Notes under the pieces: generated by a model
Told to the model about the DNA's origin: nothing
Databases searched by the model: none
Seen by the model: only the letters and a program-made list of their open reading frames with translations
Shown: positions 1 to 28,106 of the stretch, piece after piece
Layout: each line of letters opens with the position of its first letter
Position numbering within the stretch: the first letter of the stretch is position 1
Program-made: the position numbers and the translations under genes
Source: Chrysochromulina tobinii
Taxonomy: Eukaryota
NCBI GenBank assembly: GCA_001275005.1
Contig: JWZX01002788.1
Coordinates: 1-32,803, forward strand
Direction of reading: 5' to 3'
DNA length: 32,803 nt

Positions 1-1890
1 GTGCAGTGACAGCTTTGACAGGCTGGCTTGCATCTCCATCTCCGCCGCGTGCTTGCGACGCAGCTTCTTGCTCTCCTGCTTGCGCTTCTTGTGCAAGCGC
101 TCGCGCATCGCCCTCGCCTCTGCCAACACACCCTCGCTCGCGAGTGCGTGGTGCTCCTCGATCGCGCCGACCAGGCCCTCGTACTGCGCGGCCGCCATGG
201 CCACACGAAGCGCCTCGTTGGCGGCGGCAGAAGGAGCAGGACCCACGACGTCCTCGTCGTCGCCAGCCGCCGCCAACACATCGTTGTCCGGCTCGGCGCT
301 GCCACTCGCGGCCGCTGACGCACTCGCTGCCGGCGCTCTCGCCTCGCTCGCCCCTTTCTTCTTGGCCTTGGCTTTCTGGCTCGCGTTCGTCTTCTGCGCG
401 CGCTGCTTGTGCACGCCCTCCGCCTCCTCCTGGGCCAGCAGAGCCGCAGCGGCAAGCTCGGCTGCCCGCTCGGCTGCCGCACGCTCCGCACTCGACACTG
501 GAGCGACCGCAGCGATCGTCGCAGGTGCGCGGCCCCTGCTGCGCAGGAATCTTGCGATGGCGGTATGGCCTCGGGCCTCTGCGACATCGAGGGCTGTGCC
601 GAAAGCAGATTGCAAGTCGGCGCGTGCGCCAGCATGCACGAGCAGCATGACTATGTCGCCGTGGCCTTCGTAGCAGGCGGTGTGCAGAGGCGTGGCGCCG
701 TAGCTTTTTGCCTGGTCGATGGCGGCGTGGGCGGCGAGCAGCAGCTGCGCGCAGTCGCCGTCGCCTTTGACGCAGGCGGCGTGCAGAGGCGTGGAGCCGT
801 AGATGTCGGCCTGGTCGACGACGGCGTGGGCGGCGAGCAGCAGCCGCACGCAGCCGCCGCTGCCTTCGCCGCAGGCGGCGATCAGAGATGTGGTGCCTCT
901 GCTGGTTGCCTGGTCGACAGCGGCGTGGGCGGCGAGCAGCAGCTGCACGCAGTCGCCGTGGCCGCTGTCGCTCGCGGCGATCAGAGGCGTGGCGCCGTCG
1001 CTGTCTGCCTGGTCGACGGTGGCGTGGGCGGCGAGCAGCAGCTGCACGCAGCCACCGTGGCCTTCGATGCTGGCGGCGCGCAGAGGCGTGACGCCGTTGC
1101 GGTCTGCCAGGTCGACGACGGCGTGGGCGGCGAGCAGCAGCCGCACGCAGCCGCCGTGGCCTTTGTCGCAGGCGACGAGCAGAGGCGTGCGGCCGTCGCT
1201 GTCTGCCTGGTCGACGGTGGCGTGGGCGGCGAGCAGCAGCTGCACGCAGCCACCGTGGCCTTCGATGCTGGCGGCGAGCAGAGGCGTGACGCCGTTGCGG
1301 TCTGCCTGGTTAACGGCGGCGTTGGCGGCGAGCAGCAGCTGCACGCAGCCACCGTGGCCTTCGATGCTGGCGGCGCGCAGAGGCGTGACGCCGTTGCGGT
1401 CTGCCTGGTTAACGGCGGCGTGGGCGGCGAGCAGCAGCCGCACGCAGCCGCCGCAACCTTTGACGCAGGCGACGATCAGAGGCGTGTTGCCGTCGCTGTC
1501 TGCTGCCTGGTCGACAGCGGCGTGGGCGGCGAGCAGCAGCTGCACGCAGCCTCCGTTGTCTTTGCAGCAGGCGGCGTACAGAGGCGTGACGCCGTTGCTG
1601 GCGGCCTGGTCGACGGCGGCGTGGGAGGCGAGCAGCAGCTGCACGCAGTTGCCGTGGCCTTTGTCGCAGGCGGCGATCAGAGGCGTGACGCCTCTGCTGG
1701 TTGCCTGGTCGACGGCGGCGTGGGCGGCGAGCAGCAGCTTCGTGCACTTAGGGTGACCAGTCTCACATGCAGCATACAGGCAGGCGCCGAGGTGGTCCGC
1801 TTCTGTCACGCTGTCGATGAGGCCCACGGCATTCGCCTCTTCGCCGCGATGGAGCGCGTCGACGATCGCGTGCATGGCCGAGCGTCGCAT
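1..1890 (-). CDS. Ankyrin-repeat protein (about 12 ANK repeats + Ala/Lys-rich linker), 3'-truncated by the window edge; paralog of the ANK-kinase at 22561-25975
   Basis: ATG at 1890 (MRRSAMHAIVDALHRGEEANAVGLIDSV...), open frame running to base 1. 33-aa repeats such as AAVDQADRNGVTPLRAASIEGHGGCVQLLLAAH. Bases 10-660 align almost base-for-base with 24085-24735. Confidence 0.88.
   Translation of the reverse strand, partial: MRRSAMHAIVDALHRGEEANAVGLIDSVTEADHLGACLYAACETGHPKCTKLLLAAHAAVDQATSRGVTPLIAACDKGHGNCVQLLLASHAAVDQAASNGVTPLYAACCKDNGGCVQLLLAAHAAVDQAADSDGNTPLIVACVKGCGGCVRLLLAAHAAVNQADRNGVTPLRAASIEGHGGCVQLLLAANAAVNQADRNGVTPLLAASIEGHGGCVQLLLAAHATVDQADSDGRTPLLVACDKGHGGCVRLLLAAHAVVDLADRNGVTPLRAASIEGHGGCVQLLLAAHATVDQADSDGATPLIAASDSGHGDCVQLLLAAHAAVDQATSRGTTSLIAACGEGSGGCVRLLLAAHAVVDQADIYGSTPLHAACVKGDGDCAQLLLAAHAAIDQAKSYGATPLHTACYEGHGDIVMLLVHAGARADLQSAFGTALDVAEARGHTAIARFLRSRGRAPATIAAVAPVSSAERAAAERAAELAAAALLAQEEAEGVHKQRAQKTNASQKAKAKKKGASEARAPAASASAAASGSAEPDNDVLAAAGDDEDVVGPAPSAAANEALRVAMAAAQYEGLVGAIEEHHALASEGVLAEARAMRERLHKKRKQESKKLRRKHAAEMEMQASLSKLSLH
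661..1745 (-). repeat. Tandem 99-bp ankyrin-coding repeat array (about 11 units; one unit has an extra codon near 1500)
   Basis: Core ggcggcgagcagcagc recurs every 99 bp. Confidence 0.9.
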
Positions 1891-7994: not shown

Positions 7995-9605
7995 ATGTCA
8001 CTCTCGCGGCACTCGCTGTTGCCGCTGCTCGCGCTCGTGCTCGTGCCGCTCGCGTCTCCGTTTGGACGGCTGCGTACGAGCGACCGGCTCGAGCAGGCCG
8101 CGAAGCTCCTCGGCGACGCCGCCGAGCCTCCGTCACCTCCAGGCGAGAGCGGCGCGACATTCGTCCCGCTGCCCACGGCTGAGGAGCTTGCCAAGTGCAT
8201 GGACAAGAACCCGGAATGCGCGCGGTGGGCCAAGGGCGGCGAGTGCGAGGCGAATCCCGAATTCATGCTCCACGAGTGCCCGGCGGGCTGCCAGCAGTGC
8301 CAGTCCGAAAACTGCCGCGACAAGAATGCGGTGTGCGCGAGCTGGGCGGCGAGCGGCGAATGCAAGGCCAACCACGCGTTCATGCTCAAAGAATGCCCGT
8401 TCGCGTGCAAGGTGTGCCACATCAACTTCAAGGAGGCGTGCCGGCGCGATCCGGCTATGGCGCCCGCTGCGGTGCCGGGCACCATAGACGCGACCATCGA
8501 GCGCGCGCTGCGCGAGTTTCCAGCGTTCCGGCCGCGCGTGCTGCACCGCGAGCCGTGGGTGATCGAATTCCAATCGTTCCTGACGGAGACCGAGGCGGAC
8601 CACATTATACGCACGGGCGGGCACAATTTCGAGCGCAGCCTCGCAGGCGACGGCGTCACACCCGTCCGTACCAGCTCTACCAGCTGGTGCAATGTGGAAT
8701 CGTGTCTGTCGGATGGTCTGTTCCAGGTGATGGCCGCTGATGGCCGCTGATGGCCGCTGATTGCCTCTGGTTGCCTCTGGTTGCCTCTGGTTGCCACTGA
8801 GCCTCGTCCGTGTCGGTCTGATGCAGTCCGTGCGCGAGCGCATCGTGAACGTTACACGCGTGCCGTGGGAGAACGCCGAGCACTTGCAGGTACTCCGCTA
8901 TCATCCGGGCCAGTTCTACCGAGAGCACCACGACCAGAACTCGCCGCACTATTCAACGTGGGGACCACGGCTGTTCACCTTCTTCATGTACAGCGCTGAG
9001 GACCCCTGATTGTTCGCTGAGGACCCCTGATTGTTCGCTGAGGACCACTGATTCTTCGCTGACTGCACCCTGATTGCGTCCCTCATCAGGTACCTGTCGG
9101 ATGTGGAGGAGGGCGGCGAGACGCGCTTCACGAAGCTCAACCTGACAGTCGCGCCCAAGAAGGGTTCGGCGATCTTGTGGCCCTCCGGTGATGAGCACCG
9201 ATAGCCATTGAGTACCCTGAGTAGCCACCGAGTACCCACTGTGGGCTCGGCGATCCTGTGGGCCACCCCAGCATGCAAGTGCTCACCCCGGCGCCCTCCG
9301 AGTACCCCCTGTGGGCTCGGCGATCCTGTGGGCCACCCCAGCATGCAAGTGCTCACCCCGGCGCCCTCCTGCGCCCAGTGTTCTCGCGCGATCCATGGAC
9401 AACTGATGAAGGCACGTACCACGAAGCCGTCACCGTGGCCAAGGGCGTCAAGTACGCGGCCAACTTTTGGATCCACATGTTCGAGTTCCAGCAGGCGCTC
9501 ATGCGCGGCTGCGACAATGAGGACTACTGGCAGGATATGCTGCTTGACGACGAGAGGTTCGGCAAGGGGATGCTCGCTAAGCCGAACCCATCTAAAGGGT
9601 ACTAA
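7995..9605 (+). CDS. Secreted prolyl 4-hydroxylase (2OG-Fe(II) dioxygenase) with two N-terminal ShKT domains. Exons 7995-8726, 8827-8987, 9090-9187, 9379-9605
   Basis: Signal peptide. CMDKNPECARWAKGGECEANPEFMLHECPAGCQQC and a second ShKT. RTSST, EHLQVLRY, HHD, YLSDVEEGGETRF, HEA, KYAANFWIH. All three introns are GT-AG and keep frame. Confidence 0.92.
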
Positions 9606-10131: not shown

Positions 10132-13100
10132 TCAAGGCCGTTTCATCTGCCACCACGCCGGCCAGTGCGCGTCCGCATGCAAGCACAGTGAATTATACGA
10201 CGTGGCGCATAGCCGTCCACTCGCCCCAAACAGCCAAACTTGGCGTGCCACCAGCGACTGGCTGCATGGTTGGAGTGCCGCAGGACAGTCTGGACAGCTC
10301 GCATCGGCAGCAGTCACGCAGTGCCCCGATGGGACATGCTTGATGGCCGCTGCTGTGCCGGCCGTACTTGCAGCCGTGGGGCTTGCAGCCGTGGCAACAG
10401 CAGTGGCCGCCGTGTGGTTGGTCGTGACGAACTCCTGGGTTGGCGCCGACGTGGTGGCACACACGTCAACCGTGAGATTCGACGGAGATATGGCGCCTCC
10501 GTCGACCGCCGTCAGACAGAGAGACGCACTGACGTCGAGAAGACGTAGGACGGTGTAGCCGCTGACCGGCTGCGGCTGCAGCCGCCAGCAGTCATTCGTG
10601 TTGCACTCGACGCCTTGGCCATTCGGACGGCCAACAACGCGATCTCCTGCCTTGGGGGTAGGCTGCTTGGGGTAATTGGGTGAATAAGTCTGCCCCTGGG
10701 GACGGACCATCAGACGCCCCTCTTGGACCCATGCATCGCCTCGTCCCTCCGTCTCAAACTGCTCGGGGGTCATTTAGTGCAATCCGTGACAATCCGAGAG
10801 GTCATCAGTGGCCATCAGTGGCACTCAGAGAGGTCATCGGTGGCCATCCGAGGCCATCCGAGGCCATCCGAGGCGGCACTCACCTGCGTGACCATCCTAT
10901 GCCTCCAGCTAGCAAGCACAGGTTCGAACACCGTGTTGGGCGCCAGGTCGATCGTCTCCTTCGGATCGGCCGTGAGATTAAACAGCTGCTCGTCGCCCCG
11001 ATTTGCATTGTACACGTACCTGATTAGGGAGGCAGCAATCATGGGTCATCAGATGTCAGACGGAACAACAGGTTGTCGCGCTGAAACGCGTGGATCAGTA
11101 TCTGCTCGGTTGGCCATCAATCGCAATCCATGATCATCAATCGCAATCCATGGTCATCAATCGCAATCAATGATCATCAATCGCAATCCATGGTCATCAA
11201 TCGCAATCCATGATCATCAATCGCAATCAATGATCATCCCTGGCAATCGCGGTGCACGTACTTGATGAGGCCGTCAGTGAGGGCATTCCAATGGTTTGAG
11301 TCATTATAGCACGTGCTGTGCTCGAGGTCGAGGTATTCACGCCACGGACCCGGATTGGGCGCGTATTCACAGCGCGCGCCCGTCGGGTCGGTGAGTAGGC
11401 AGAGCATCGATTTCCCATCCGTCGGGTCGAAGGGGGGCTGCGCCCACGACTGCGCGCCGCTCGCGAGCCCAGCAGCATCAACGAGGGTGTGGAAGACATC
11501 GCGCAGCTCTGTGACGACGGGTGGCTCGACGATAGAGCCGCGGGAGATGAGGGTCTGGCCGAGCTTGGCACGCGACTGCGCCCAACGCTCGGGCCATCGC
11601 AGCAGCATCGGCACGTGCGCCGAGAACTCGTACGGGTACCTACATTCAGTGGCATTCAGAGGCACTCAGAGGGACTCAGTGGCACGCCGAGAACTCGTAC
11701 GGGTACCTGCACTCAGAGGCACTCAGTGGCACTCAGTGGCACTCAGAGGCACTCAGTACGGGAGCCTGCAATTATAAAGGGGTCTTGCTTGCTAGCAGTG
11801 GTCATCATTAGAGGCCCTCACGGACCCCTTCCGCCAATGGTAGTGGTCGCCCTGCCCATCGCCGTGGTCCGACGTCCAGAGGATGAAAGTGCTCTCGAGC
11901 AGGCCGGTCTGCACGAGCGTCTCGTAGATGAGTCCCATCTGCTCCACCACCATTCGCAATCACTCGCACTCAGTGACAATCACTCGCAATCACCATTCGC
12001 AATCACTCGCAATCACCATTCGCAATCACTCGCACTCAGAGACAATCAAGCAGTTCGTGACCATCTTCAGTGGTCACTTTCGAAATGATCCTCATCAGCA
12101 TCGATTGCGCACTGATACTCACTGCACTCACCTGCTCATCAGTGTGCAATCAGTGCGCAGTGCATCTCAATCAGTGACAATCAGTGACAATCAGTGCAAT
12201 CAGTGCAATCAGTGCAATCAGTGCATCTCACTCAGTGACAATCAGTGGCCATCAGTGGCCATCAGTAGCACTCACCTGCTCATCGACGAAAGCCACCGAC
12301 GCAGCGTACGCGCGCCGGCCCAACGTCGCCTCCTCCTCCGGCATGGCGCCACACCTGATGAGGGAGGCAATCAGCATGCAATCAGACTCAGCGCCGGCCC
12401 AACGCCGCCTCCTCCTCCGGCATGGCGCCACACCACGCGTCCGCGGAGACTTCACACCCAGGAGGGTCGCCGAGGCTCGCATTGCCTCGAAACCGAGTGC
12501 TCCAGCAGCTGCTCGCACCGCTGGAGATCGCGCCGTGGACGCTTGCGCCGCTGAAGGTCGCGCACCGCACCATCGGGCGCAGCGCCGTCGTGGGCACTTG
12601 GTCAAGCAGGCGTTGCGGCGGGTCGTAGGGCGAATGAGGGCGGTGGAAGGACACCTTGAGCAGGAAAGGCTGGCCAGACGGGTCATGCGCCTTGAGGAAG
12701 GCGACAGCCTGAGCGCCGAGCCATGCGGTCGGATGCAGTCGCTCCTCGTACACAAAGGCCTTGCCATGCCAACCGTTCCAACCATCACCGTCCAGCGGGT
12801 CAAGCGTGGCGGATGGGTCCTGTCCAGGCATCTGCTGGGCAAACCAACGGTCGTAGTCGTCGTACTCGCCGTTCCATGGCCATGGTCTCGCCGACGGGTC
12901 CCAACGGCCCAGCCCATCGTACAGCACGGTGCGGTCGTACCCGTGCGCAATGCCTGAGTCGGACGTGGCGTTCCACCCAAAGTGATCCTTTCCCAGCGAC
13001 GCGGTGATGTAGCCCGCGTCCCGCAGCAACTGCGGGAAGACGAGCGGGTAGTGCTCGGCGACGTCACCATACCCGAGCATGCCGTGGCCCCAAGGACGCC

Positions 13101-13293
13101 GGCCGGTCAGCAGAGCCGCACGAGCGGGGGTGCAAGTGGGCGTAGAGGACCATGAAAAGCGCACGCGCACTCCTTCTGAAGCGATGCGATCCAGGGCGGG
13201 TGTGCGTACGGGCGATGCAGCATCGGCGTAGGATTGCGAATCCCAGCGCAGCTGATCCGCCATGGTGAATAGAAGGTTGGGTGGCGCGACCAT
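10132..13293 (-). CDS. Formylglycine-dependent (S1) sulfatase with C-terminal ricin-B/CBM13 lectin domain. Exons 13293-12434, 12354-12276, 11938-11826, 11639-11262, 11019-10884, 10758-10132
   Basis: PNLLFTMADQLR, CTPARAALLTGR (CxPxR), GKDHFG, SFHRPHSPY, WTSDHGD...HWRKG|YPYEFSAHVPML, EQLFNLTADPKE. C-terminal SLCLT/SGHCV/RQVW beta-trefoil motifs. Five GT-AG introns. Confidence 0.9.
11115..11238. repeat. Intronic 20-bp tandem repeat (catcaatcgcaatccatgat)n, about 6 copies
   Basis: Direct inspection; lies inside intron 11020-11261. Confidence 0.85.
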
Positions 13294-13505: not shown

Positions 13506-14595
13506 ATGGTACTCGTCCGTCAGCCGGACAAAATGATATAGACCGTCTCACGACCCCCTTCCCCCTGCCCGCTCTCGACTTGCTCGACAGTTGCTTGACC
13601 TTATTGATGACGACCTCGTCCGTGCCATCGTCGCAAGGGTGCCGATTCACGACTTGCTGCCGGTGGCGCTCACATGCACGCGGATGTGGCCCGCATGCAC
13701 AGAGCGTGCCAAGGCTAACCAGAAGCAGGACGGACCTCTCTGGACCACCCTCATCGTGGCTTCGGCATCTCGGGTCAAGTGGGCGCTGGGCATGGGCAAC
13801 ATCGAACCGAGTGAGGCGTGGTGCAAGGGGACCGCTGAGCGAGGCGACCTTGCCATGCTGCAGTGGCTTCGTGTGCATCAAGAGCCGCCGTGCCCGTGGA
13901 GCGAGACAGGCTGCATGTCAATCGCCGCAGCCCGAGGCCACTTGTCTGTTGTGCAGTGGCTGCACGAGCAAGGGGCGCCACTCCTCGTGGCAGACAACTT
14001 TGGCGATCAGCCCATCCACTGCGCTGCTCTGCACGGCCATCTCGCCGTGGTGCAGTGGCTGCACGAGCAAGGCGTGCCGCTCACTGGGGCGGGCTACAAA
14101 GGTCGGCAGCCCATCCACCACGCTGCTCGGCGTGACCAACTCGCCGTGGTGCAGTGGCTGCACAAGCAAGGGGTGTCGCTCGTCGTAGAGGGCACTGTTC
14201 ATCGAGATCAGCCCATCCACCACGCAGCAATGCGTGGCCATCTCGCCACACTGCAGTGGCTGCACGAGCAAGGTGTGTCGCTCACTGTGGCGGCCAACAA
14301 TGGCGAGCAGCCCATTCTCTGCGCTGCCCTGCGTGGCCATCTTGCCACAGTGCAGTGGCTGCACGAGCAAGGTGTTTCGCTCACCGTGGCGGCCGAAAAT
14401 GGTCGGCAGCCCATTCACTGCGCTGCTCGGCGCGGCCATCTCGCCGTGGTGCAGTGGCTGCACGAGCAAGGGGTGTCGCTCGTCGTGGCGGACAGCAATG
14501 GAGATCAGCCCATCCACCACGCTGCTCTGCGTGGCCATCTCGACACGGTGCAGTGGCTGCACGAGCAAGGCGTGCCGCTACCTGTACCTGCTTAG
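13506..14595 (+). CDS. F-box-like + ankyrin-repeat protein (ATG 13506, probable intron 13509-13590)
   Basis: LLDLIDDDLVRAIVARVPIHDLLPVALTCTRMW is F-box-like. About 8 ANK repeats (GDQPIHCAALHGHLAVVQWLHEQG). ATG|GTACTC...pyrimidine tract...gacAG|TTG. Confidence 0.82.
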
Positions 14596-22560: not shown

Positions 22561-25500
22561 TCAACGTGATGAAGTGCCCTCGAGCGCCTCAATCGCCGTC
22601 TTCACCGCGGACACTAGCTGCGACGCCTCCGCCTCGCCCCGTGGGCCATCGCGGCGCCAACGATCGTCGTCGAGGTGGCGCGCGGCATTTGCCCAAATGC
22701 GGAGCGAGTGCAGCCGATCTTTCAGGTCGGCCCGCATGCTACACTCGCGATGCCAATAGTTGATGCGCTCCTCAAAGCCCTCGGGCGCCTTCGCCGCCCT
22801 CGCTGCATAGATGGCGTCGAGTCGAGACATGACGCTGCTGAACGCGAGCAGCATATTGTCCTTGATGCCCTTGTGCGCATCGGAGCCCTTGCGCATCTCA
22901 CGCACCTGCTTCGAGAGCGGCGTGGGCACGTAGCCAGCCGCCGTGCTCGCGGGCGGCTCCGAGCTTGAAAGCACCGAACCGTCGAGCGCGCCGCGGCCTG
23001 TGCCTCTGCTCCCATCCTCATCAGCCAGGCTTGAGAGCGTCGCCAGTGCAGCGGACACCTTGAGCCTCTTCCGCACACTCGTGCCATGGCACAGACCCGA
23101 AGCAGCAGACCGGACAAGGTCCTTGAATTTCGTTGCCACATGTGGCGGCCAGCCTGCAGTAGCGTCAGCAAGCTGTACTGCATCGATGTCCTCAAAGTCC
23201 TTATCGAAGTCCTCCTCGCACCTAGTGATGATGCTCAGGGGCGAGCGGCCGGTAAGCGCCACGAGCAGCGTGATGCCCAGCGCCCAACCATCCGTCATAG
23301 CTGAGTACGCGCCGCCCTCGACAACGCTCGGGTCCAGATAGCCGCGGGTCAGGTAGAGCGCATTCGACGCGCTCTTCATCTTCGACGCCTCGGTCCCGGC
23401 GTCCATCTTGGCGAAGCCCGTGTCCGCGAGGTAGGCGTTGAGCTCGTCGTCGAGCAGGATGTTCTCGGGCTTGAAGTCGCGATGCACGACGGCACCCTTG
23501 CCGCCAGGCACTCGCGTGTGCAGGTAGAGCAGCGCGTCGGTCGCCTGGCGTAGGATGCGCAGGCGCTGGTGCCACATCAGAGGGCTCAGCGACGCACCGA
23601 GGCCGAGGCGGCGCAGGTGCTCGGAGTCGGCCTCTTTCGGCCACAGCCGATCGGCGAGGCTGCCGCCGCGCATCAGCGGGAAGACGAGGCACGGCGGCGC
23701 CCCGTGCTCCAGACAGTAGCCGAGCAGCGGCAGCACGTGCGGGTGGCTGCACTGCTGCAGCACACTCACCTCGCGCTGCAGGTCGGCGAGATCGTGCACG
23801 CCCGACTTGGCGCGCTTGACGGCGACGGGCTTGTGGCGCAACCAGAGCGGCAGCGCCGCGGGCCGCAGCGACGACAGCGCATCCGCGGTGTAGACGTTGC
23901 CGTAGCCGCCGCTGCCGATGAGCCTCTGCTCTCCAAAGCCGTCCGTCGCCGCCGCAAGCTCGGCGAGCGTGAGGGCGACGGCCGCAGGCGGCGCCGAGGG
24001 TGCCTCCGGGGCCTCCGATGCAGGCGCCGCTTCTGCGGATGCTGAGCCTGCGGCAGGCGGCGACTGTGTGACCTCGAGCAGCGACAGCTTCGACAGGCTG
24101 GATTGCATATCCATCTCCGTCGCGTGCTTGCGACGCAGCTTCTGGCTCTCCTGCTTGCGTTTCTTGTGCAAGCGCTCGCGCATCGCCCTCGCCTCCGCCA
24201 ACACGCCCTCGCTCGCGAGTGCGTGGTGCTCCATGATCGCACCGACCAGGACCTCGTACTGCGCGGCCACCATGGCCACACGAAGCGCCTCGTCGGCGGC
24301 GGCAGAAGGAGCCGGACCCACGACGCCCTCGTCGTCGCCAGCCGCCGCCAACACCTCGTTGTCCGCCTCGGCGCTGCCACTCGCGACCGCTGACGCACTC
24401 GCTGCCGGCGCTCTCGCCTCGCTCGCCCCTTTCTTCTTGGCCTTGGCTTTCTGGCTCGCGTTCGTCTTCTGCGCGCGCTGCTTGTGCGCGCCCTCCGCCT
24501 CCTCCTCGGCCAGCAGAGCCGCAGCGGCAAGCTCGGCTGCCCGCTCGGCTGCCGCACGCTCCGCACTCGACACCGGAGCGACCGCAGCGATCGTCGCAGG
24601 TGCGCGGCGCCGGCTGCGCAGGAATCTTGCGATGATCGTGTGGCCTCCAGCCTCTGCGACATCGAGGGCTGTGCCCGAAGCGCATCGCAAGTCGGTGCGT
24701 GCACCAGCATGCACGAGCAGCTTGACTATGTCGCCGTGGCCTTGGTTGCAGGCGGCGTGCAGAGGCGTGGCGCCCTTGCGGTCTGCCTGGTTGACACTGG
24801 CGTTGGCGGTGAGCAGCATTTGCGCGCAGTCGCCGTGGCCTTTGTTGCAGGCGGCGAGCAGGGGCGTGAAGCCGTCGCAGTCCGCATGGTCGATGGCGGC
24901 GTGGGCGGCGAGCAGCAGCTGCACGCAGTCGCCGTGGCCTCTGTCGCTGGCGGCGAGCAGACGGCGTGTTGCCGTAGCTGGAGGCCTTGTCGACGGCGGC
25001 GTGGGCGGCGAGCAGCAGCCGCGCGCAGTCGCCGTTGCCTTTGACGCAGGCGGCGTACAGAGGCGTGCCGCCTTCGCGGTCTGCCTGGTCGACGACGGCG
25101 TGGGCGTCGAGCAGCAGCCGCACGCAGCCGCCGTCGCAATTGTCGCAGGCGGCGATCAGAGGCGTGGTGCCGTTGCTGTCTGCCTGGTCGACGGTGGCGT
25201 GGGCGGCGAGCAGCAGCCGCACGCAGTCGCCGTGGCTTTTGCGGCAGGCGGCGTGCAGAGGCGTGACGCCCTTGCGGTCTGCCTGGTCGACGGCGGCGTG
25301 GGTGGCGAGCAGCAGCCGCACGCTGTCGCCGTGGCCTTTGTCGCAGGCGGCGTACAGAGGCGTGACGCCGTAGCTGGAGGCCTGGTCGACGGCGGCGTGG
25401 GCGGCGAGCAGCAGCTGCACGCAGTCGCCGTGGCCTTTGTAGCAGGCGGCGTACAGAGGCGTGGCGCCGTCGCTGTCTGCCTGGTCGACGGCGGCGCGGG

Positions 25501-25975
25501 CGGCAAGCAGCAGCTGCGCGCAGTCCCCGTCGCCTTTCATGCAGGCGGCATGCAGAGGTGTGATGCTCCATTTATCAGCCTGGTCGACGGCGGCGTGGGC
25601 GGCGAGCAGCAGCTGCACGCAGTCGCCGTTGCCTTTGTTGCAGGCGGAGATCAGAGGCGTGGTGCCGTTGCGTTCTGCCTGGTCGACGGCGGCGTGGGCG
25701 GCGAGAAGCAGCTGCACGCAGTCGCCGTCGCCTTTGTCGCAGGCGGCGATCAGAGGCGTGACGCCGTTGCTCTCTGCATGGTCGACGGCGGCGTGGGCGG
25801 CGAGAAGCAGCCTCGCGCACTTAGGGTGACCAGTCTCACATGCACTCAGAAGGCTTTTCCCGAGGTCGGCCGCTCCTTTGACGCTGTCGATGAGGCCCAC
25901 GGCCATGGCCTCGTCGCCGCGACGGAGCGCGTCGACGATCGCGTTGGCCTTGACGAGGTTGCCTGTCGCGTCCAT
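22561..25975 (-). CDS. Ankyrin-repeat (x12) + IRAK/Pelle/RLK-like protein kinase + putative HEPN/DUF4145-like C-terminal domain; apparent 1-bp insertion at 24962
   Basis: ANK repeats. LTLAELAAATDGFGEQRLIGSGGYGNVY, VAVKR, HRDFKPENILLD, ADTGFAK, GYLDP, TDGWALG. C-terminal LHSLRIWANAARH. ORFs 23222-25975 and 22561-24924 join if c24962 is removed (gagcagaCggcgtg vs consensus gagcagaggcgtg). Confidence 0.88.
24735..25820 (-). repeat. Tandem 99-bp ankyrin-coding repeat array (about 11 units)
   Basis: 99-bp periodicity of ggtcgacggcggcgtgggcggcgagcagcagc. Confidence 0.9.
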
Positions 25976-26170: not shown

Positions 26171-28106
26171 ATGCCAGTCCCTCGCTGCGGCGCCTCGCAA
26201 ACGAGGTCGTCGTCTCCTCTGCTGCTGCTCACTCTGCTGTCAGGCACGTCGGCAGTGCTGCGTGTGCGTGTGCCACGGATGAACGCGGGCGGTGCCACGA
26301 TTGGAGCTGCCACGCGCTTCTCCATCCTCAGCGGCCGCGTTCTGACGCCCGGCTCCTCTGGCGACGGCTGGTGGGACGGCCGGTGCGCCGCGATGCCGAT
26401 CGTGCTGCCCCCGTCCGCGTCGCGCAGCAAGTGGCAATGCTTCTATTACGGCCGCTCGGACGACAAGTGGAACTGCGGGTTGCCCGCCTTCTTGCCGACG
26501 GGCGTCTCAGGGCTCGCCGAGTCAGACGACGGGCTCACCTGGACGCGCGTCGAGGGTCCCCTGGAGGGCGGCGCCATTCTGCGCCCGTCGGACGCACCCG
26601 ATGCCTTCGACCACGTGCACCTCGGCATGACGGACGTCTTTCCGCTCGCGGGCGGCGCGTACGCAGCACTCTACTTTGGGGGCAGCGCAGATGAGGTGCG
26701 GCTGGGCATGGGGCCCAGCCCTCCTATCCGGGGCTTCAAGATGCGCCCAGGCGCGGCGACCTCGCGCGATGGGCGCGGGCGCGTCTGGGAGCGCGCGCAT
26801 GGATCCAATCCCCTGCTGGACGTAGGCACCTCTGGCACTTGGGATTCCAATTTCGTCTCGTGGCCCCGGGCACTGCCCCTTGACCCCGGGCAGCCGGATG
26901 GCGAGTGGCTCATGACGTATCACGCGCTGCAGCCGCCGGAGGCGGAGGGTGCACCGCCGCGCTGGGCGGTCGGTGCAGCCGTGAGCCAGGATGGTCATCC
27001 GATCGGCCGTTATGCCAAGCTCGAAGGGCCCATCCTCAGTGGAGGCGCACCGGGGAGCTTTGACGAAGCTGGCATTGGCACGCGCCACGTGGTGCACGAT
27101 CCGGCAGGCGCTGTATCGGGCGCTGGGCTCGTGATGGTGTACGAGGGCGTGGGCGCGGACGGTCGCCACCGGCTCGGCATCGCCACCTCGTCCGACGGGC
27201 GTCTGTGGACCAAGGCGGAGGGCTTGGGGCCCGACCCGGGCGGTCCCATCTTTGAAGGCGCTCCGCCCGAGGCCGATGCTTGGGACAATGGCAACGTGGG
27301 TACGCTCGCGAGCACGAGAAGCTCTCCCCTTGGAGCCTGGTCAGCTGCATGCAAGTGCTCACCACGGCGCCCTCTCCTCCCCACAGGTACGCTCGCGAGC
27401 ACGAGGAGCGCCATGCCTGGCGCATGCACGTGCTCATCACGGCGCCCTCGCCCTTCCCCACAGGTACGCCGTGGGTCGTCCCACTGCCGAGCTGCATGCA
27501 CGTGCTCACCACGGCGCCCTCTCCCTTCCCCACACAGGGTACGCCGTGGGTCGTCCCACTGCCGAGCGGCCGTTGGCGCCTGTATTACGTCGGCACGTCG
27601 AGCAAGGGACGCACCGTCGCCATCGGGGCCGCGGAGGCGGATGCGCTCATCACGGCGCGCTGGGCGCGCGTGCCCGTCTCGGCCAGCGGTCTGTGCGTGG
27701 ACGAGCGCGACGGCGCAGGCGAGACTTCCCTCATCCTTGGAGCCTGGCCAGCTGCATGCACGTGCTCACTACGGCGCCTCCTCCTCATCGGGCAGGCGAG
27801 ACTTCCCTCATCCTGGCCGCCGAGCGTGGCGATGCCGGTACGCTCCGCATCCTTCTCGCCGCCGGAGCCGACCCCGGCGCTTCGAGTCGCTCGGGATGGA
27901 CTGCGCTGCATGGCGCGGCCGAGCACGGCAGTGTGCCCATCATCGAGATGCTCGCGGCCGCTGGCGGCGATGTCTCCGCGCTTGCCAAATCGGGCAAGAC
28001 GCCCCTCGACATCGCGCGCCAGTATGCGAGGCCCGAGGCTGCGCAAGCGCTGGAAGCACTCGGCGCAGCAGCGAAAGTCTCGGGCGACACGCCGAGCACC
28101 TTTTGA
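26171..28106 (+). CDS. Five-bladed beta-propeller glycoside hydrolase-like protein (GH32/43/130-like fold) with C-terminal ankyrin repeats. Introns from 27300 (acceptor 27463 or 27537) and 27719-27795 (GC-AG)
   Basis: N-terminal hydrophobic signal. Blade motifs WWDG, GLAESDDGLTWTR, AFDH, WDSNFV, SFDEAGIG, LGIATSSDGRLWTK, AWDNGNVGTPWV..WRLYYVG. ANK motifs GETSLILAAERG, GWTALHGAAEHG, GKTPLDIA. Confidence 0.8.

What the first reader, a model, noticed from the sequence alone, without database searches (positions are those of the whole stretch)
12312..12433. Intron made of a 43-nt exon duplication plus a 36-nt acceptor cassette: snapshot of intron birth
The 79-nt sulfatase intron (12433-12355, minus strand) starts with 43 nt that match the first 43 nt of the next exon with one mismatch (12391-12433 vs 12312-12354). 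It is followed only by tgagtctgattgcatgctgattgcctccctcatcAG. The duplicated exon segment supplies the GT donor and the cassette supplies branch point and acceptor, so splicing restores the original CDS exactly. This fits insertion of a short 3'-splice cassette with a long target duplication, unlike typical TIR-type introners with short TSDs (inference).
Basis: partly seen in the sequence, partly recalled or inferred. Interest (0 to 1): 0.8.

Follow-up and report, generated by a model that had tools for sequence, protein, structure and literature searches.

The report
Introns copying themselves into algal exons
A freshwater-type haptophyte alga carries a very young intron made of a 43-base copy of the next exon plus a splice-site piece shared with many other introns, and dozens of sibling sites suggest that its introns likely spawn new introns by a DNA copy-and-return slip rather than by a transposon.

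Summary
In detail: 43 nt of exon copy (one mismatch) plus a 36-nt acceptor piece in a sulfatase gene of Chrysochromulina (cf. parva). Four other assemblies start with an exact copy, and one holds three units (237 nt), so the window shows a shortened array. The intron is young: 13 of 15 listed same-species protein records and 15 of 15 from a sister lineage read straight through the site. It is no one-off: 36 of 45 sites with this cassette carry an upstream exon copy (0 of 441 controls), a second unrelated cassette does the same (19 of 39; 0 of 377), and four allele pairs show precise filled/empty sites. Copies are 14-60 nt, not a fixed TSD; inserts share junction homology with other introns (7 of 41 at 8 nt or more; 0.3% simulated), here 11-14 nt with locus L122. 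Best reading: microhomology template switching copies another intron's 3' end and re-copies the exon, and selection keeps products that splice cleanly. Splicing of this intron is inferred from contig ends only. The scan noted this family before on another piece of this genome (e1-2577349), read there as a short mobile element.

The parts
12355..12433 (-). Young 79-nt intron unit (GT..AG) of the sulfatase gene; three such units in tandem in assembly L033
   Evidence: empty alleles
12391..12433 (-). Copy 1: duplicate of the first 43 nt of exon 2; supplies the GT donor (TG|GTGTGG)
12355..12390 (-). 36-nt insert: in-frame TGA stop, two CTGAT branch-like motifs (A at 12382 and 12371), pyrimidine tract, CAG acceptor; its last 31 nt are a high-copy intron end; its 5' junction is shared with locus L122
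   Evidence: branch motif reading from general knowledge
12312..12354 (-). Copy 2: start of exon 2 (CGAMPEEEATLGRR)
10132..13293 (-). Sulfatase gene (Pfam PF00884), six exons 13293-12434, 12354-12276, 11938-11826, 11639-11262, 11019-10884, 10758-10132; 730 aa
11939..12275 (-). Intron 2, older (position shared with 86%, 74% and 61% relatives); ends in GAGCAG like the upstream exon, holds an inner copy of its own donor
11640..11825 (-). Intron 3, with an inner tandem copy of acceptor plus 22 nt of the next exon
   Evidence: (D18)
11020..11261 (-). Intron 4: first 10 nt match the next exon at 9 positions, end resembles the cassette; removed in RNA contigs; likely an older member
27300..27386 (+). 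87-nt candidate intron: 19-nt copy of the next exon start plus the second cassette family
27719..27795 (+). 77-nt candidate intron (GC donor): 19-nt copy of the next exon start plus the second cassette family

Best explanation
This is a recently gained, still polymorphic insertion, predicted to be spliced out as an intron, that likely arose when DNA synthesis slipped from the exon onto the 3' end of another intron and back. Shown: exon copy plus insert, empty alleles, the same layout at dozens of loci with two cassette families, shared junctions between loci. Inferred: a nascent strand ending in the exon anneals by microhomology (here 11-14 nt, TGGGCCGGCGC(TGA)) inside another intron of the family, copies its repeats, branch region and acceptor through AG|GT, then returns to its own gene 15-60 nt upstream at a G|GT or G|GC and re-copies that stretch. 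The upstream copy now starts with GT/GC and becomes the donor, so splicing gives back the old mRNA. Products without a usable donor, or too short, would be purged from exons, which explains the GT/GC starts and the narrow total length. Each new intron is itself a template, and its direct repeats let units multiply (arrays) or be lost precisely. The mirror event (donor piece plus copy of the upstream exon end) also occurs.
For: Family: 36 of 45 de-duplicated terminal cassette sites have an upstream copy of the exon start, 0 of 441 cross-paired controls; looser motif 58 of 106, of which 36 have exon-like sequence upstream, 35 of those 36 start GT or GC, 32 of 36 keep a frame open after removal and only 5 of these stay open unspliced. 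Second, unrelated cassette: 19 of 39 against 0 of 377. Copy length 14-60 nt, insert 29-78 nt, total 53-108 nt, copy and insert lengths anticorrelated (rho -0.58, n=50). 5' junction shared with another locus: 8 nt or more in 7 of 41 units with a traceable donor, against 2 of 323 swapped controls and 6 of 2040 simulated random joins with the true donor present. Focal junction: TGAGT plus cassette stands at only 3 distinct loci, and L122 shares 11 nt more, 14 nt of it in L122's own exon. Inserts carrying another locus's exon piece: L074 and L116 from L023, L078 from L080, L050 from L003/L110. Copies differ more in their first 7 nt (35 of 301) than later (27 of 926), as expected if donor bases are carried past AG. 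Youth: 13 of 15 listed members of the 61-member same-species cluster and 15 of 15 listed of the 28-member sister cluster (86%) read through the site into intron 2. Four precise filled/empty pairs among 16 allele pairs, 29,677 aligned bases. No terminal inverted repeat or stable fold in the insert.
Against: No junction-spanning RNA evidence for this intron: the 44-nt repeat breaks the contigs; the spliced path is inferred from overlapping contig ends in X14 and could also come from an empty allele; an intron-unit contig in RNA run X14 has depth 61.5, above the exon contigs (31-34), which may mean retention, a stable intron, or inflation by high-copy words. The test on another family gene (L026) found no RNA cover of its exons. 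27 of 68 units had no traceable donor, and most of the 41 others show only 0-4 nt of junction homology. The 7 strong cases are 6 locus pairs, some counted both ways, and direction is open (L122 to here or the reverse). Return-site homology beyond G|GT is clear for some pairs only. Empty alleles at this site are known from protein calls, not DNA. DNA versus cDNA synthesis is untested. First 7 nt were left free, which favours mismatches there.
Confidence: 0.62

Rival explanations
1. A non-autonomous mobile element (SINE-like or other) inserts by target-primed reverse transcription or staggered cuts, giving long variable TSDs and ragged 5' ends; it becomes an intron when the TSD starts with GT.
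For: Fixed 3' end and variable 5' end of the insert, variable duplication length and hundreds to thousands of near-identical ends resemble TPRT products (general knowledge).
Against: Two unrelated acceptor cassettes and a mirror donor-type form share the layout; inserts carry pieces of other loci's exons and junction homology far above chance; no poly(A) or simple-repeat tail at the fixed end; no autonomous element seen, though none was searched genome-wide.
Confidence: 0.15
2. Same products, but made at the cDNA level: reverse transcriptase copying the mRNA switches to another gene's pre-mRNA at AG|GT, copies the intron end, switches back downstream, and the cDNA recombines into the gene (template-switching model of Roy and Irimia).
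For: Gives exactly the same two microhomology junctions; insertions lie in sense in genes; the model is named as an untested route in PMC3443670.
Against: Intron 2 lies 79 nt downstream and is kept, whereas cDNA recombination tends to remove neighbours (inference); inserts do not start at one branch position; sense orientation follows from selection alone.
Confidence: 0.13
3. An old intron's 3' end and the next exon start were duplicated in tandem and the old 5' part was later lost (or plain tandem duplication in Rogers' sense).
For: Inner copies of acceptor plus exon start are common: 22 of 58 sites have intron-like sequence upstream, intron 3 of this gene is one, and unit numbers differ between alleles.
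Against: Empty alleles and relatives have no intron here; only 18 of 36 upstream exons end in AG; the insert is not local sequence but a genome-wide repeat. This process explains the arrays, not the first unit.
Confidence: 0.04
4. The insertion is real but not, or poorly, spliced: a truncating allele (stop at 12390) in the cultured strain.
For: Weak donor (TG|GTGTGG); the C. parva gene model ends at this stop; intron-unit contig at depth 61.5 in RNA run X14.
Against: In X14 the exon-2 contig runs unbranched from 12355 into exon 3 and the exon-1 contig ends in the matching overlap, at depth 31-34, with downstream introns removed; GT/GC starts in 35 of 36 exon-like cases show selection for splicing; intron 4 with the same layout is removed in RNA.
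Confidence: 0.06

Closest known systems
Introners that carry the 3' splice site and take the 5' site from the TSD (Symbiodinium; Polarella glacialis classes 4/5 and 6/8/10; 10.1101/2020.10.14.339549, sections 4 and 5 read)
   Same: Repeated intron ends; donor recruited from a duplicated target, acceptor brought in; mRNA unchanged.
   Different: There the TSD is fixed at 4 or 8 nt (3-8 across classes) and Symbiodinium elements have inverted repeats; here 14-60 nt and variable, no TIR, ragged 5' ends, inserts with pieces of other exons.
Chrysochromulina sp. introner of Gozashti et al. 2022 (10.1101/2022.06.06.494994, passages)
   Same: Same genus, no TIRs, one splice site co-opted from the duplication.
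   Different: Reported with a 4-bp TSD and carrying the 5' site; the long duplications and donor-daughter junctions are not in the passages read. The mirror donor-type introns seen here may be related; supplements were not seen.
Intron gain in staggered double-strand-break repair (Daphnia neointrons; PMC4202315 and PMC3020277, passages)
   Same: Polymorphic new introns, direct repeat of the adjacent exon at the far end, captured DNA, microhomology.
   Different: Repeats there are 4-12 bp; here they make up a third or more of the intron and the captured DNA is a ready-made splice end from another intron, giving chains of related introns.
Tandem genomic duplication model (Rogers; reviewed in PMC3443670, passages)
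   Same: Exon duplication supplies a splice site and leaves the CDS intact.
   Different: Needs AGGT inside the duplicated segment and no foreign DNA; here half of the sites lack the upstream AG and the acceptor is imported.
Microhomology-mediated template switching and templated insertions (MM-BIR, alt-EJ; PMC7407515, passages)
   Same: Short junction homologies, ectopic templates, partially tandem duplications with inserts.
   Different: Described as a source of mutations and rearrangements, not as a genome-wide, self-feeding source of introns.

Membership tests
TIR/MITE-type introner | Terminal inverted repeats | tested here: not met
   No inverted pair between the insert's ends; insert folds no better than shuffles, z 0.75; 5' ends vary between members.
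TIR/MITE-type introner | Short TSD of fixed length (3-8 nt) | tested here: not met
   Duplications 14-60 nt, median 26.
Introner in the wide sense | Many similar intron sequences at unrelated loci | tested here: met
Introner in the wide sense | Recent gain shown by empty orthologous sites | tested here: met
   Focal site by protein calls; four other sites by DNA.
Introner in the wide sense | Defined element ends and a mobilising transposase or reverse transcriptase | tested here: inconclusive
   5' ends ragged; no genome held, so no search for an autonomous partner.
Spliceosomal intron | GT/GC..AG ends, branch motif, pyrimidine tract, frame restored | tested here: met
Spliceosomal intron | Removed from RNA | tested here: inconclusive
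   Contig ends in X14 fit the spliced path but no contig bridges the site; L026 not covered.
Tandem genomic duplication (Rogers) | Both splice sites from a duplicated AGGT, no foreign insert | tested here: not met
   Upstream exon ends TG, acceptor lies in a 36-nt insert of genome-wide repeat.
DSB-repair / template-switch neointron | Direct repeat of adjacent exon plus captured DNA with junction microhomology | tested here: met
DSB-repair / template-switch neointron | Dependence on a repair polymerase or pathway | not testable with these tools
   Needs genetics or mutation-accumulation lines.
Non-LTR retro-insertion (TPRT) | Poly(A) or simple-repeat tail at the 3' end | tested here: not met
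   3' end is the acceptor CAG joined to exon.

The most novel reading that the evidence does not exclude
Chrysochromulina runs a transposase-free intron factory: existing introns act as templates for microhomology template switching that duplicates 15-60 nt of exon and imports a splice end, so introns beget introns in traceable parent-daughter chains, thousands of times per genome and still segregating in populations.
Probability: 0.5. Interest if true: 0.9.

Novelty: new variant of a known kind. Interest (0 to 1): 0.78.

Why it matters
How new spliceosomal introns arise is a long-standing open question; most recent gains have no traceable source, and about 72% of introner families could not be classified in PMC12130899 (passage). 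Here source intron, both junctions, empty allele and later array growth can be read from sequence, in a cultured alga, at many loci. That makes repair-driven or template-switch intron gain directly testable (donor tracing, population frequencies, mutation-accumulation lines). It also warns that haptophyte gene models may be cut short at such introns, as the C. parva model of this gene is.

Tried and rejected
No genome was held for the window, so no census. The cassette was not found in viral contigs (0 hits). RNA laid on L026:1300-4200 gave no exon cover in X11, X13, X14: no verdict on splicing there. Other in-frame donors (12457, 12436, 12421, 12403, 12394) keep the frame but would delete or add residues against 18 aligned homologs. 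The formal donor-type count (75 of 170 against 2 of 843) is confounded by GT/GC inside acceptor-type copies and is not used as a number; clean donor-type cases were picked by eye (L012 twice, L039, L066, L061). Contig ends in DNA run X3 and RNA run X11 (break at 12406) fit a mix of forms and could not be resolved. Depth of the cassette (28,544 per bin against 44) is no copy number by the tool's own note; it is used only to say high-copy. Literature searches found no paper describing long exon copies plus imported splice ends in haptophytes; two returned zero papers; the library lacks most subscription papers, and bioRxiv supplements (introner lists of Gozashti 2022 and Roy 2020) were not seen and may bear on this.

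Full report
Observation. On the minus strand 12433-12391 repeats 12354-12312 at 42 of 43 bases, the G before each copy also matches, and 36 nt ending in CAG lie between them. The host is a sulfatase (Pfam PF00884). RNA contigs of two runs give the other exon borders, and the six-exon model is an open frame of 730 residues; 18 of 18 aligned homologs hold the segment once. Unspliced, a TGA follows the first copy. A source labels a protein one residue from the window's first-exon ORF as Chrysochromulina parva, so the organism is that haptophyte or a close relative.

Local structure. The window is probably a shortened form. L033 has four copies in the order A,G,G,A with three cassettes (237 nt); L054, L093 and L123 begin A then G and their contigs end in the array. 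The A-first protein stands on 12 contigs; the window's G-first ORF is not in the collection. Contig ends of DNA run X1 fit the A-first array; those of X3 and X11 are ambiguous. One read-through record (P0208) has the G residue, so G may also be an allele.

Age. Protein calls that run through the site and stop inside intron 2 exactly as the window's frame does (VDEQVSATDGH) must come from unspliced sequence without this intron (inference). Of the 15 listed members of the 61-member same-species cluster 13 do so, one stops at the insert's TGA and one ends otherwise; 15 of 15 listed members of the 28-member cluster at 86% identity read through, as do relatives at 74% and 61%. The intron is thus new and polymorphic, while intron 2 is older.

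Family. Among 45 distinct terminal sites with enough flank (of 91 before de-duplication), 36 have an upstream copy of the exon start, against 0 of 441 cross-pairs. With a looser motif 58 of 106 do; 36 have exon-like sequence upstream, 30 start GT, 5 GC; 32 of 36 upstream exons end in G but only 18 in AG; 32 keep a frame open after removal and 5 of those stay open unspliced. A second, unrelated acceptor cassette shows the same in 19 of 39 sites against 0 of 377, two of them in this window. A mirror form, donor piece plus copy of the upstream exon end, is seen at L012 (twice), L039, L066 and L061. For 50 single units (30 of the 36, dropping six arrays or introns over 110 nt, plus the window unit, plus the 19) copies are 14-60 nt, inserts 29-78 nt, introns 53-108 nt with median 81.5, and copy and insert lengths are anticorrelated (rho -0.58). 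Away from the seeds there are 37 copy-bearing motifs in 210,532 bases (biased upward by clustering and arrays), three in the 32.8-kb window; with a genome near 59 Mb (C. tobin, PMC4580454, passage) this is of the order of thousands (estimate).

Polymorphism. In 16 allele pairs (94.6-99.8% identical, 29,677 aligned bases) four sites are precisely filled or empty: L043/L065 (73 nt), L025/L125 (90 nt), L006/L034 (88 nt, second cassette), L061/L021 (235-nt donor-type array); six pairs differ in unit number. Gain and precise loss between the repeats cannot be told apart there, and short-read collapse is possible for single cases.

Mechanism. Of 68 units, 41 had their insert start found at another locus; the match extends into the exon copy by 5 nt or more in 12 and 8 nt or more in 7, against 10 and 2 of 323 swapped controls and 3.8% and 0.3% of 2040 simulated random joins. 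The 7 are 6 locus pairs. Several inserts begin with a piece of the donor's own exon (L023 to L074 and L116, L080 to L078, L003/L110 to L050). At the focal site TGAGT plus cassette occurs at only three distinct loci, and L122 shares 11 further bases, part of a 14-nt run in its own exon; the direction is open. Copies differ more in their first 7 nt (35 of 301) than later (27 of 926), and some downstream copies begin with bases absent upstream, as expected if copying runs past the donor's AG; those positions were left free in the test. There is no terminal inverted repeat or special fold. The simplest account is a double template switch with microhomology: out of the exon into another intron, through its acceptor, back upstream at G|GT. 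Enzyme and nucleic acid (DNA or cDNA) are inferred, not shown.

Splicing. In RNA run X14 the exon-1 contig ends one unmatched base past 12406 and the next contig starts at 12355 and runs unbranched into exon 3, which is the spliced path; no contig bridges the site, and an empty allele would look the same. A contig of the intron unit has depth 61.5 in that run. The cassette-to-copy joint is present in three RNA runs as a loose end, and the second gene tested was not covered. Intron 4 of the same gene, with a 9-of-10 copy and a cassette-like end, is removed in RNA contigs.

Comparison. Known introners that take the donor from the TSD have fixed 4- or 8-nt TSDs (10.1101/2020.10.14.339549, two sections read); the published Chrysochromulina example has a 4-bp TSD and carries the donor (10.1101/2022.06.06.494994, passages); Daphnia neointrons have 4-12-bp repeats (PMC4202315, passages); tandem duplication needs AGGT (PMC3443670, passages). 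Passages of PMC12130899, PMC11282704, PMC8469720, PMC3020277 and PMC7407515 name the general routes but not this layout. Ten searches found no description of it; the library is incomplete and bioRxiv supplements were not seen.

Verdict. Real, recent, one of many; works like repair-type intron capture fed by the genome's own introns; not a TIR introner. New variant of a known kind, interest 0.78.

Noticed in passing
window 10759-12433: All five introns of the sulfatase gene show exon-copy traces of falling length (43, about 7, degenerate, 9 of 10, 4 nt), like an age series of the same process.
   Followed up: partly
L033:2950-3190: Three complete GT..AG units head to tail with AG|GT joints; could be removed as one intron or stepwise (recursive splicing).
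   Followed up: no
L061:3079-3460 and L021: A donor-type insertion whose copy lacks the AG is followed by an acceptor-type insertion whose copy lacks the GT; together they would make one intron with a synonymous change.
   Followed up: partly
L009 (cassette at 238-268): Insertion whose downstream copy starts with six foreign bases; use of a nearby GT would add one codon (imprecise intron gain).
   Followed up: no
L019:2963-3031 and L122: The insert of L019 holds 16 nt matching the exon of L122, a second possible daughter of that locus.
   Followed up: no
window 9209-9379 (+): Intron of a ShK-domain, prolyl-hydroxylase-like gene with a 70-nt tandem unit made of a degenerate copy of the upstream exon end plus the second cassette family.
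   Followed up: no
window 27386-27540 (+): Three second-family cassettes in a row with short exon copies, inside a gene without Pfam match in this part.
   Followed up: partly
P0200: The C. parva reference gene model ends at the stop inside this intron, so annotation likely misses such introns.
   Followed up: partly
window 590-1880, 13834-14593, 24665-25955: Arrays of 99-nt repeats; the second and third are ankyrin repeats by Pfam, the first resembles the third.
   Followed up: no
window introns generally: Introns are built largely of 10-nt minisatellite units containing CTGAT, each a possible branch motif.
   Followed up: partly
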